This document shows, piece after piece, positions 1,810-2,271 of a DNA stretch of 64,000 nucleotides. The DNA is from an uncultured Acidimicrobiales bacterium (lineage in GTDB: Bacteria; Actinomycetota; Acidimicrobiia; Acidimicrobiales; SZUA-35). Below the pieces are notes generated by a model. It saw nothing but the letters and a program-made list of their open reading frames with translations. It had not been told where the DNA came from and did no database searches. Each line of letters starts with the position of its first letter. Position 1 is the stretch's first letter. The position numbers were made by a program, and so were the translations under genes. The DNA lies in contig CALIFY010000075.1 of the NCBI GenBank assembly GCA_938021675.1, forward strand, positions 18,382-82,381, written 5' to 3'.

Positions 1810-2271
1810 ATGCTTGAAACGGGAATCAAGGCACCGGACTTCACCGTGCCAGACCACGACGATGAGACGTTCACCCTCTCGTCCCACCGTGGCCGTTGGG
1901 TTCTGTTGTGGTGGTACCCGAAAGCGAGCACACCCGGTTGACGACTCCAAGGAACGAGCCTGCGTGATCAGGCTCAACGGTTCTCCGACGCCGAGTGCGA
2001 CGTGATCGGGATCTCCTTCGACTCCCCGACCGACAATCTGGCGTTCCGGTCCGAAAACCAGTTCCCGTTCCCTCTGTTGAGCGACGTCGACCGCTCGGTC
2101 GGGCAGGCATACCAGGTAGTACGCACCACCGGTGACCGGTTTGCTGACTATCCGCAGCGCGTCGCCTATCTCATCGATCCCGACGGCACAATCGTGACCG
2201 CCACCGAGGTTACCGACCCCGCCGGGTACGGCGAGCAGGCGTTGGCCGACCTGGCAGCCGCCCAACGCTGA
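1810..2271 (+). CDS. Bcp/AhpC-TSA type peroxiredoxin with in-frame TGA (1939-1941) at the peroxidatic Cys position; candidate selenoprotein, or a nonsense pseudogene
   Basis: ATG at 1810 gives MLETGIKAPDFTVPDHDDETFTLSSHRGRWVLLWWYPKASTPG-[TGA]-RLQGTSLRDQAQRF..., continuing in the same frame into listed ORF 2002..2271 (IGISFDSPTDNLAFRSENQFPFPLLSD...). This aligns with the canonical YPKxxTPGCTxExxxFRD peroxiredoxin active site, with TGA in place of Cys. Confidence 0.6.
1952..1983 (+). promoter_or_regulatory. Candidate bacterial SECIS hairpin downstream of the TGA
   Basis: Perfect 7-bp stem gagcctg (1956-1962) / caggctc (1969-1975) with 6-nt loop cgtgat containing GU. Lower stem gaac (1952-1955) / gttc (1980-1983). 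The hairpin starts 11 nt after the TGA. Confidence 0.45.

What the first reader, a model, noticed from the sequence alone, without database searches (positions are those of the whole stretch)
1810..2271. Peroxiredoxin with TGA at the catalytic Cys position plus a SECIS-like hairpin
One reading frame runs from ATG at 1810 to the stop at 2269-2271, interrupted only by TGA at 1939-1941. The TGA falls exactly where Bcp/AhpC-TSA peroxiredoxins have the peroxidatic Cys: WWYPKASTPG-U-RLQGTSLRD versus canonical YPKxxTPGCTxExxxFRD.

Eleven nt downstream a hairpin begins. It has a lower stem gaac/gttc, a perfect 7-bp upper stem gagcctg/caggctc, and a 6-nt loop CGUGAU. This puts a GU-containing apical loop 21 nt after the UGA, which fits what is known of bacterial SECIS elements. 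Selenocysteine peroxiredoxins exist, for example PrxU of Eubacterium acidaminophilum. In this lineage it would be a noteworthy recoding event that standard gene callers split or miss.
Basis: partly seen in the sequence, partly recalled or inferred. Interest (0 to 1): 0.7.

Follow-up and report, generated by a model that had tools for sequence, protein, structure and literature searches.

The report
Selenocysteine peroxiredoxin gene with SECIS hairpin
This is a real but ordinary member of a known family of bacterial antioxidant enzymes (Bcp/PrxQ peroxiredoxins) whose catalytic residue is selenocysteine, encoded by a UGA "stop" codon that a nearby RNA hairpin reprogrammes; gene callers routinely split it in two.

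Summary
Frame 1810-2271 is open except for TGA at 1939-1941. With that codon read through, the product is a 153-aa AhpC/TSA peroxiredoxin of the Bcp/PrxQ type, and the TGA aligns with the peroxidatic Cys of solved Bcp structures.

Both halves are under purifying selection, and an independent assembly has the identical gene.

A 7-bp hairpin (1956-1975) capped by a near-invariant CGUGA loop follows the TGA. Across 183 unique relatives it is far more frequent than synonymous-codon shuffling predicts (78% vs 7.5%), shows compensatory changes, and holds a rare CGU Arg codon in the loop (177 of 183). Its loop G-U lies one codon further from the UGA than in E. coli fdhF.

TGA is otherwise the commonest stop in the window.

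Sec-containing Prx (TxxU motif, COG1225) has been a known, abundant selenoprotein family since 2005, so this is a new member of a known kind. It is not a PrxU ortholog. selA, selB, selC and selD could not be checked in this genome.

The parts
1810..2271 (+). Complete Sec-peroxiredoxin (Bcp/PrxQ-type) gene: 153 sense codons including UGA-Sec at codon 44, plus the stop
   Evidence: Open frame apart from one TGA. Pfam AhpC-TSA E=2.5e-34. The MLE(T/V/I)G start is conserved in orthologs. The gene is identical in the independent assembly L214.
1918..1941 (+). Active-site motif P37-K-A-S-T41-P-G-U44 (PxxxTxxU)
   Evidence: Read directly from the translation. It aligns to YPKDNTPGC and YPKDSTPGC of solved Bcp structures.
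1939..1941 (+). In-frame UGA, inferred selenocysteine codon at the peroxidatic position
   Evidence: TGA at the same codon in 203 of 204 motif matches across the 208 sequences held at that point (the window plus L001-L207), including 75 of 76 metagenome loci chosen by protein similarity only. dN/dS is about 0.15-0.4 on both sides.
1956..1975 (+). SECIS hairpin: 5' arm 1956-1962, loop CGUGAU 1963-1968 (G-U at 1964-1965), 3' arm 1969-1975
   Evidence: Forms in the minimum-free-energy fold. In relatives, a stem of at least 6 bp occurs in 78% against 7.5% under a synonymous-codon null. Three of 7 pairs are compensatory and 0 of 500 shuffles reach the observed covariation score. The loop Arg codon is CGU in 177 of 183 sequences against 13% elsewhere in the same genes. 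The covariance model hits the window only at 1950-1984 with 48 bits; this sequence was in the training set, and the next-best hit scores 11.7 bits.
1952..1983 (+). Possible lower stem gaac (1952-1955) with gttc (1980-1983); specific to this window and probably not functional
   Evidence: Present in the window fold, but the pairs are not conserved in the family, at 17-38% paired.
2158..2160 (+). Codon for the conserved catalytic Arg (R117, in PQRVAYLID)
   Evidence: Aligns with the conserved ERSTFLID Arg of solved Bcp structures.
2269..2271 (+). TGA used as the gene's ordinary terminator
   Evidence: TGA is the commonest stop among likely genes in the window, 20 of 37. UGA recoding is therefore local and not genome-wide.

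Best explanation
Window 1810-2271 encodes one 153-residue thiol peroxidase of the Bcp/PrxQ peroxiredoxin subfamily, in which the peroxidatic residue (position 44) is selenocysteine.

Proposed mechanism: during translation the ribosome reaches UGA 1939-1941. The mRNA hairpin 14 nt downstream (7-bp stem 1956-1962 with 1969-1975, loop CGUGAU with G-U at 1964-1965) binds the Sec-specific elongation factor SelB carrying Sec-tRNA(Sec), so Sec is inserted and translation continues. The gene's second TGA (2269-2271) has no such hairpin and terminates translation. The enzyme then reduces peroxides through a selenenic-acid intermediate on U44, positioned by T41, P37 and R117. There is no Cys at the two known Bcp resolving positions, so it probably works as a '1-Sec' enzyme recycled directly by a thioredoxin- or glutaredoxin-type reductant.

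Shown here: the gene, the conserved UGA, selection on both halves, and the conserved, covarying hairpin with a constrained GU loop.
Inferred: SelB/tRNA-Sec decoding, because the machinery was not seen; Sec as the inserted residue; the peroxidase chemistry; and the recycling route.
For: 1. Peroxiredoxin identity and position of the UGA. Pfam AhpC-TSA E=2.5e-34. The best NCBIfam match is Bcp. Alignment to solved Bcp/PrxQ structures puts the UGA on the peroxidatic Cys and conserves the catalytic Arg.

2. The UGA is conserved, not accidental.
By record title, 71 are Actinomycetota (mostly Acidimicrobiia) and 26 are Alphaproteobacteria, plus Gammaproteobacteria, Gemmatimonadota, Acidobacteriota, Myxococcota, SAR324 and others.
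- Among 76 metagenome relatives found by protein similarity alone, 75 have TGA and 1 has TGC.
- Syntenic orthologs L002 and L003 have the same TGA.
- An independent assembly, L214 (99.9% identical over 6.4 kb), has the identical gene.

3. Both halves are translated. dN/dS is about 0.15-0.4 both upstream and downstream of the UGA.

4. The hairpin is selected as RNA.
- Mean contiguous stem is 5.9 bp against 2.37 +/- 0.12 under synonymous-codon resampling, and a stem of at least 6 bp occurs in 78% against 7.5%.
- The stem is kept in three different registers, with loops of 5, 6 or 7 nt, and with a 1-nt bulge variant.
- Compensatory changes occur at 3 of 7 pairs in each of two registers, 0 of 500 shuffles reach the observed score, and pairing collapses when the 3' partners are slid.
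- The synonymous third base of the loop Arg codon is U in 177 of 183 sequences, against 13% CGU elsewhere in the same genes.

5. Geometry matches a reference SECIS. In E. coli fdhF the loop G-U is at nt 23-24 from the U of UGA; here it is at nt 26-27.

6. UGA is not reassigned. TGA terminates 20 of 37 likely genes in the window, including this one.

7. Sec use in the class is plausible. All 84 complete Actinomarina genomes (Acidimicrobiia) encode selA, selB, selC and selD.
Against: No selA, selB or selD homolog and no tRNA-Sec was found in the 64-kb window or in any of about 200 fetched relatives' loci. The rest of the genome could not be searched, so the decoding machinery is unverified for this organism.

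Overall folding energy of the region is not lower than expected for a G+C-rich coding sequence.

The window protein has Arg immediately after the Sec codon, where 180 of 183 relatives have an A at that codon's first base (Thr, ACN). This is a rare variant of unknown consequence.

The closest Cys-form relatives also retain the hairpin, so hairpin presence alone is not strictly diagnostic of UGA decoding.

There is no protein-level evidence.
Confidence: 0.88

Rival explanations
1. SelB/SECIS-type recoding takes place, but the inserted residue is not Sec. For example, Cys could be delivered by a tRNA-Sec-like tRNA, or the organism could lack selA and selD. The UGA-plus-hairpin pair would then encode a Cys peroxiredoxin.
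For: The machinery was not observed. Cys forms of the same subfamily exist and work without Sec. The closest Cys forms keep the hairpin.
Against: There is no positive evidence for it. Holding a UGA plus a hairpin across hundreds of lineages, when a single TGA-to-TGC change gives Cys directly, implies a benefit specific to Sec. Related Acidimicrobiia have the full Sec pathway.
Confidence: 0.04
2. Nonsense pseudogene: a Cys codon mutated to TGA and the gene is dead.
For: A single TGC/TGT-to-TGA change would produce it, and gene callers treat the TGA as a stop.
Against: TGA is at this codon in 203 of 204 motif matches among the sequences examined, including 75 of 76 metagenome relatives chosen by protein similarity. 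dN/dS is well below 1 on both sides. The hairpin is conserved and covaries. The gene is identical in an independent sample.
Confidence: 0.02
3. Genome-wide reassignment of UGA (as in genetic codes 4 or 25), or non-specific read-through, instead of local SECIS-dependent recoding.
For: It would also give a full-length product.
Against: TGA is the most frequent terminator among likely genes in the window (20 TGA, 15 TAG, 2 TAA) and ends this very gene. The genome is 62% G+C and Acidimicrobiia-like. The conserved hairpin is not explained by this reading.
Confidence: 0.01
4. Two separate products: a 43-aa peptide, plus a C-terminal fragment made by re-initiation.
For: Public annotations list exactly these two pieces.
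Against: The next possible start differs among relatives, giving called fragments of 86 to 111 aa. In the window it is a GTG 20 codons downstream. The residues between the UGA and that GTG are conserved as protein. A fragment lacking the peroxidatic residue cannot be a peroxidase.
Confidence: 0.01

Closest known systems
Sec-containing peroxiredoxin (Prx) selenoprotein family, TxxU motif, COG1225/PF00578 (Zhang, Fomenko and Gladyshev 2005; Zhang and Gladyshev 2008; Peng et al. 2016)
   Same: The same domain, the same TxxU redox motif with Sec at the peroxidatic position, and the same UGA-plus-downstream-hairpin arrangement. The family had 43 sequences in the Sargasso Sea survey, where it was the second most abundant, 253 in GOS, and 91 selenoproteins in 78 sequenced organisms. 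It is listed in the 2026 review.
   Different: Nothing essential; this is where the gene belongs. The papers read here do not describe the Acidimicrobiia-dominated WWYPKAxTPGU clade or its CGUGA-loop SECIS. I could not compare their sequences directly.
PrxU of Eubacterium acidaminophilum (Sohling et al. 2001; NCBIfam NF040737)
   Same: A peroxiredoxin with Sec at the peroxidatic position. It is the only biochemically characterised Sec-Prx cited.
   Different: It belongs to a different peroxiredoxin subfamily. The window protein scores 59.9 bits against the PrxU model cutoff of 270 and matches only about 143 of its 233 positions. The window protein is 153 aa and Bcp-like.
Cys-type Bcp/PrxQ peroxiredoxins (E. 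coli Bcp family PRK09437; Xanthomonas campestris PrxQ 5iph/3gkk; Burkholderia 5enu)
   Same: The closest solved structures (E=8e-20 to 3e-19). The YPKxxTPG[C/U] active site and the catalytic Arg are shared.
   Different: Sec replaces Cys at the peroxidatic position. There is no Cys at +5 (the E. coli Bcp resolving position, from my own knowledge of that family). The position aligned to the alpha-3 Cys of the Xanthomonas chain 5iph (the resolving position, from my own knowledge) is Gly. The window protein scores below the Bcp equivalog cutoff, 94 bits against 140.
E. coli fdhF SECIS, the reference bacterial Sec insertion element
   Same: A hairpin immediately downstream of the UGA, inside the coding region, with a G-U dinucleotide in the apical loop. 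Some family members also have a single bulged pyrimidine in the stem.
   Different: The loop G-U is at nt 26-27 from the UGA here and at nt 23-24 in fdhF. The loop is CGUGA(Y) here and GGUC in fdhF. The bulge, where present, is on the 3' arm here; in fdhF it is the 5'-arm U17. SelB binding was not tested.
Prx-like thiol:disulfide oxidoreductase selenoproteins (UxxC motif)
   Same: The AhpC/TSA fold and Sec use.
   Different: The motif differs: UxxC in that family, TxxU here. The window protein has no Cys within 3 residues after Sec.

Membership tests
Peroxiredoxin, Bcp/PrxQ subfamily | AhpC/TSA thioredoxin-fold domain | tested here: met
   PF00578 E=2.5e-34, 118 bits against a cutoff of 26, covering 122 of 124 profile positions.
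Peroxiredoxin, Bcp/PrxQ subfamily | PxxxTxxC active-site motif with the peroxidatic residue, plus the conserved catalytic Arg | tested here: met
   P37-xxx-T41-xx-U44, with UGA in place of the Cys codon, and R117. Both align to solved Bcp structures.
Peroxiredoxin, Bcp/PrxQ subfamily | Closest to Bcp/PrxQ among the peroxiredoxin subfamilies | tested here: met
   The best NCBIfam hits are Bcp PRK09437 (94 bits) and PrxQ NF053650 (78 bits), both below their equivalog cutoffs. The top PDB hits are all Bcp/PrxQ.
Peroxiredoxin, Bcp/PrxQ subfamily | Peroxidase activity with a thioredoxin-type reductant | not testable with these tools
   Requires an enzyme assay.
Bacterial selenoprotein (Sec-Prx, TxxU family) | In-frame UGA at a position occupied by redox Cys in homologs, conserved among orthologs | tested here: met
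   TGA in 203 of 204 motif matches. Cys homologs P0001-P0008 have C at the same position.
Bacterial selenoprotein (Sec-Prx, TxxU family) | Coding sequence conserved on both sides of the UGA | tested here: met
   dN/dS is about 0.15-0.4 upstream and downstream of the UGA.
Bacterial selenoprotein (Sec-Prx, TxxU family) | Bacterial SECIS: a stem-loop shortly downstream of the UGA with G (GU) in the apical loop, conserved among orthologs | tested here: met
   A 7-bp stem whose loop starts 21 nt after the UGA, with an invariant CGUGA. It is supported by enrichment over the synonymous null, covariation and the CGU codon constraint. No Rfam model matched, as expected given how poorly bacterial SECIS elements are represented there.
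Bacterial selenoprotein (Sec-Prx, TxxU family) | selA, selB, selC (tRNA-Sec) and selD present in the same genome | not testable with these tools
   None is present in the 64-kb window or in about 200 relatives' loci. Support is indirect only: Actinomarina (Acidimicrobiia) has all four.
Bacterial selenoprotein (Sec-Prx, TxxU family) | Selenium actually present in the protein | not testable with these tools
   Needs mass spectrometry or 75Se labelling.
PrxU (E. acidaminophilum type, NF040737) | Score at or above the equivalog cutoff, with full-length match | tested here: not met
   59.9 bits against a cutoff of 270, matching profile positions 36-178 of 233.
Prx-like thiol:disulfide oxidoreductase selenoproteins | UxxC (or UxxU) redox motif | tested here: not met
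   The sequence is U-R-L-Q, with no Cys at +3. The motif here is TxxU.

The most novel reading that the evidence does not exclude
The UGA-plus-hairpin pair is maintained and decoded in this lineage without the canonical Sec pathway, for example by SECIS/SelB-like insertion of Cys or another residue, because the organism lacks selA and selD. That would be a naturally occurring alternative use of the SECIS recoding system in an aerobic actinobacterial class.

A milder and much more likely version is also not excluded. In it, this clade shows that uncultured Acidimicrobiia are broad, almost entirely unannotated Sec users. Sec would be the predominant state of this peroxiredoxin, and the Cys forms would be recent derivatives that still carry a fossil SECIS.
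Probability: 0.04. Interest if true: 0.7.

Novelty: new member of a known kind. Interest (0 to 1): 0.27.

Why it matters
The value is mainly for annotation. In every public gene call examined, this gene is split into a 43-aa piece and an 86-111 aa piece, and no NCBIfam model names it. The antioxidant repertoire and the selenium dependence of many uncultured Acidimicrobiia, Alphaproteobacteria and other lineages are therefore under-reported.

The family also offers a clean example of a SECIS embedded in a coding sequence. It has an invariant CGUGA loop, a stem that shifts register while staying paired, and apparent fossil hairpins in recently converted Cys forms. This could be useful for training bacterial SECIS predictors and for studying Sec/Cys exchange.

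It does not change what is known about Sec decoding or about peroxiredoxins.

Tried and rejected
- Rfam found no SECIS or tRNA-Sec match, either at gathering thresholds over the whole window or at E<=10 around the site. This is uninformative, because bacterial SECIS elements are poorly represented there.
- Single-sequence and family-wide folding-energy tests showed no excess stability over shuffles or synonymous recodings. Only the specific stem is enriched, so I dropped energy as a criterion.
- tblastn with E. coli SelA, SelB and SelD, and ARAGORN, over the window plus about 200 loci (about 1.3 Mb) found nothing. The machinery is not linked to the gene, and this says nothing about the rest of the genome.
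- Looking up the window's own 89-aa product returned only an independent 6.4-kb contig and not the parent 87-kb contig, so the window could not be extended.
- A scan of the window for other in-frame TGAs with coding potential on both sides gave no convincing second selenoprotein. The coding-potential score was too weak even for the prx N-terminal half.
- The 95-nt ARAGORN 'tRNA-Gln' is not a tRNA-Sec. It lies antisense inside a permease gene.
- A link to a downstream rhodanese gene, seen in L004 and L208, is not general: 5 of 203 loci.
- The covariance model built from the window's register class is too sequence-specific. It recovered only 31 of 100 genome loci at E<0.01, so I did not use it as a family-wide detector.
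- Literature searches for selenocysteine together with Microthrix or Ilumatobacter found nothing relevant.

Full report
**1. The observation**

- The frame starts at ATG 1810 and runs to TGA 2269-2271, with one internal stop, TGA 1939-1941.
- The translation reads MLETGIKAPDFTVPDHDDETFTLSSHRGRWVLLWWYPKASTPG*RLQGTSLRDQ....
- The inverted repeat gagcctg (1956-1962) / caggctc (1969-1975) closes the 6-nt loop cgtgat (1963-1968).
- gaac (1952-1955) can pair with gttc (1980-1983).
- The loop begins 21 nt after the UGA.

With the TGA read as a sense codon, the product matches Pfam AhpC-TSA at E=2.5e-34 over essentially the whole domain. Alignment to solved Bcp/PrxQ structures (5enu, 5iph) puts the TGA exactly on their peroxidatic Cys, YPKASTPG-U against YPKDNTPGC and YPKDSTPGC. 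The catalytic Arg (R117, codon 2158-2160) is conserved.

**2. Is it more than chance?**

Taken alone, the hairpin is not remarkable for a 62% G+C coding region. The folding z-score for 1930-2000 is -0.40, and 18% of synonymous recodings of the window sequence fold as well. The case rests on comparison with relatives.

*2a. Gene calls are split.* A protein search returned about half full-length (about 153 aa) Cys-containing relatives and about half truncated calls of 86-111 aa that cover only the part after the TGA. On the contigs behind those truncated calls, a 43-aa AhpC-TSA fragment sits directly upstream in the same frame, separated by TGA at the same codon.

*2b. Orthologs by gene order.* L002 and L003 share the window's neighbourhood: nucleoside hydrolase and DUF3039 upstream, then enoyl-CoA hydratase, 5-formyl-THF cyclo-ligase and M20 peptidase downstream.

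*2c. By record title:

| Group | Count |
|---|---|
| Actinomycetota (mostly Acidimicrobiia, including Ilumatobacteraceae and Ca. Microthrix) | 71 |
| Alphaproteobacteria | 26 |
| Gammaproteobacteria | 5 |
| Others and unclassified (Gemmatimonadota, Acidobacteriota, Myxococcota, SAR324, Verrucomicrobiales, Phycisphaerae, Spirochaetaceae and more) | 18 |

*2d. Unbiased metagenome scan.* This scan was seeded only by peptide words away from the active site. Of its best 80 loci, 76 contained the active-site motif, and of those 75 had TGA and 1 had TGC.

*2e. Independent assembly.* L214, from a different sequencing run, is 99.9% identical to the window over 6.4 kb and has the identical gene including the TGA. 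This excludes a sequencing error.

*2f. Selection on both halves.* Nei-Gojobori dN/dS between the window and three diverged TGA-carrying homologs (the syntenic ortholog L002, plus L004 and L001) is about 0.15-0.4 both upstream and downstream of the TGA. Both halves are under purifying selection as protein.

**3. The hairpin**

I compared 183 unique 60-nt sequences downstream of the TGA.
- *Conserved loop.* The bases CGUGA at nt 25-29 are essentially invariant. They encode Arg-Asp of the conserved LRD motif. However, the synonymous third base of the Arg codon is U in 177 of 183 sequences, whereas CGU makes up only 13% of Arg codons elsewhere in the same genes. That is selection on the RNA and not on the protein.
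- *Stem enrichment.* A stem closing this loop is at least 6 contiguous bp in 78% of sequences, against 7.5% when each sequence is recoded with synonymous codons drawn from the family's own usage. The mean is 5.9 bp against 2.37 +/- 0.12 bp.
- *Shifting register.* The stem is maintained in three registers, with loops of 5, 6 or 7 nt. Most of the apparent exceptions are the same 7-bp stem with one bulged pyrimidine.
- *Covariation.* In the window's register, 99.1% of cells pair and 3 of 7 pairs show double (compensatory) changes. In the 5-nt-loop register the figure is 99.4%, with 37 double-change cells. In both, 0 of 500 shuffles reach the observed covariation score, and pairing collapses when the 3' partners are slid by 1-3 columns. 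One caveat: the classes were defined by having at least 4 bp in that register, which inflates the percentage paired but not the compensatory counts.
- *Specificity.* A covariance model built from the window's class hits the window only at 1950-1984 (48 bits). The window sequence was in the training set, so the informative figure is the next-best hit, at 11.7 bits.
- *Overall folding energy.* It does not differ from the synonymous null, -13.3 against -12.9 kcal/mol. What is conserved is a particular structure and not stability in general.

**4. Geometry against a reference**

In E. coli fdhF, which I fetched and checked here, the UGA is codon 140. The loop G-U is at nt 23-24 counted from the U of UGA, and U17 is bulged. 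In the window the loop G-U is at nt 26-27, exactly one codon further. From established knowledge of bacterial SECIS elements, which I did not test here, SelB recognises an apical loop with G-U on a stem placed a fixed short distance after the UGA. The element fits that description.

**5. Alternatives**

- *Genome-wide UGA reassignment* is excluded. TGA terminates 20 of 37 likely genes in the window and this gene itself.
- *Pseudogene and sequencing error* are excluded by section 2.
- *A split gene with re-initiation* is implausible. The next start codon varies among relatives and the intervening residues are conserved.
- *A non-Sec residue at the UGA* cannot be excluded. I could not see the Sec machinery. 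There is no selA, selB, selD or tRNA-Sec in the window, which I annotated almost completely with Pfam, nor in about 200 relatives' loci.
- *Indirect support for Sec:* all 84 complete Actinomarina genomes (class Acidimicrobiia) carry selA, selB, selC and selD.

**6. Cys forms**

Cys-containing members of the same WWYPKAxTPG[C/U] clade exist. I obtained DNA for five of them.

| Cys-form loci | Identity to the window protein | Hairpin | Arg codon |
|---|---|---|---|
| L148, L208, L209 | 58-61% | 6-7 bp, retained | CGT in two of the three |
| L210, L211 | 51-52% | 2 bp and 1 bp | CGA, CGC |

This fits recent Sec-to-Cys conversions that carry a decaying SECIS, but five loci is a small sample.

**7. 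Mechanism of the enzyme (inferred)**

The PxxxTxxU motif and R117 are the standard peroxiredoxin catalytic set. There is no Cys at +5. The residue aligned to the alpha-3 Cys of the Xanthomonas chain 5iph is Gly. Those two positions are the known Bcp resolving positions, which I take from my own knowledge of the family. The only semi-conserved Cys, at +19 (C63 in the window), occurs in 84 of 183 relatives. A '1-Sec' mechanism with direct reduction by a thioredoxin- or glutaredoxin-type partner is therefore most likely.

The window protein is unusual in having Arg (CGA 1942-1944) immediately after Sec, where 180 of 183 relatives have an A at that codon's first base (Thr, ACN). The independent assembly confirms the Arg.

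**8. Comparison with what is known**

- GOS had 253 Sec sequences against 7,348 Cys homologs (PMC2398784).
- A survey of sequenced genomes listed 91 selenoproteins in 78 organisms (PMC5029168).
- The family appears in the 2026 review of prokaryotic selenoproteomes (PMC13188914).
- The window gene is not an ortholog of the biochemically studied PrxU, scoring 60 bits against a cutoff of 270. No NCBIfam model names it; the best match is generic Bcp, below its cutoff. It is also not a 'Prx-like' UxxC protein.
- Apart from the Actinomarina preprint, I found essentially no literature on Sec use in Acidimicrobiia.

**9. Verdict**

It is a genuine selenoprotein gene: a new member of a known kind, systematically mis-annotated in public data, and of modest interest. 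I put 0.88 confidence on a Sec-encoding Bcp/PrxQ with a coding-region SECIS. The main gap is that the Sec machinery is unverified in this genome.

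Noticed in passing
window 56012-63925 (-): A giant 2,637-aa ORF with no Pfam match at E<=1e-4. It is rich in Gly, Ser, Ala, Arg and Asp and looks largely disordered. Its GC3 is 0.56, against about 0.70 for other genes, and it lies in the lowest-G+C part of the window (0.57-0.60). Self-BLAST found no significant internal repeats. 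It could be a real giant surface or toxin-like protein on acquired DNA, or a spurious long ORF.
   Followed up: partly
window 31408-31502 (-): ARAGORN calls a 95-nt 'tRNA-Gln (ctg)'. It lies antisense inside the MacB_PCD/FtsX permease ORF 30533-31918 (+), and Rfam finds no tRNA there. It is almost certainly a false positive and is not a tRNA-Sec.
   Followed up: yes
L148, L208, L209 versus L210, L211 (Cys-form relatives): The closest TGC/Cys relatives still have the 6-7 bp SECIS-like hairpin after the Cys codon, and two of the three have the CGT loop codon. More distant Cys relatives have lost it. This looks like fossil SECIS elements left by recent Sec-to-Cys conversions.
   Followed up: partly
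window 1942-1944: The residue after Sec is Arg (CGA), where 180 of 183 relatives have an A at that codon's first base (Thr, ACN). An independent assembly confirms it. The functional consequence is unknown. It would create a very short tryptic peptide, ASTPGUR.
   Followed up: partly
window 5337-6182 (+), overlapping ORF 5306-6034 (-): A 281-aa ORF rich in Thr, Pro, Ser, Glu and Asp, of low complexity, with a hydrophobic N-terminus and a C-terminal PEDPE repeat. It has no Pfam match. A long antisense ORF overlaps it, so the true coding strand is unclear.
   Followed up: no
window 18922-22797 (-): A 930-aa protein with only weak coiled-coil-type matches lies directly downstream of an OmpA/BON-domain gene on the same strand. 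They may form an envelope-associated pair. I did not investigate further.
   Followed up: no
L004 5309-5638, also L006, L007, L090, L138, L208: A small rhodanese gene lies immediately downstream of the prx gene in a few relatives, overlapping its stop codon in L004. It occurs in only 5 of 203 loci and not in the window, so it is not a general partner.
   Followed up: yes
window 25805-26392 (+): A Fur-family regulator (PF01475) lies next to a Bax1-I membrane protein (25001-25708, minus strand). It could be a PerR- or Fur-type oxidative-stress regulator, but nothing links it to the prx gene 24 kb away.
   Followed up: no
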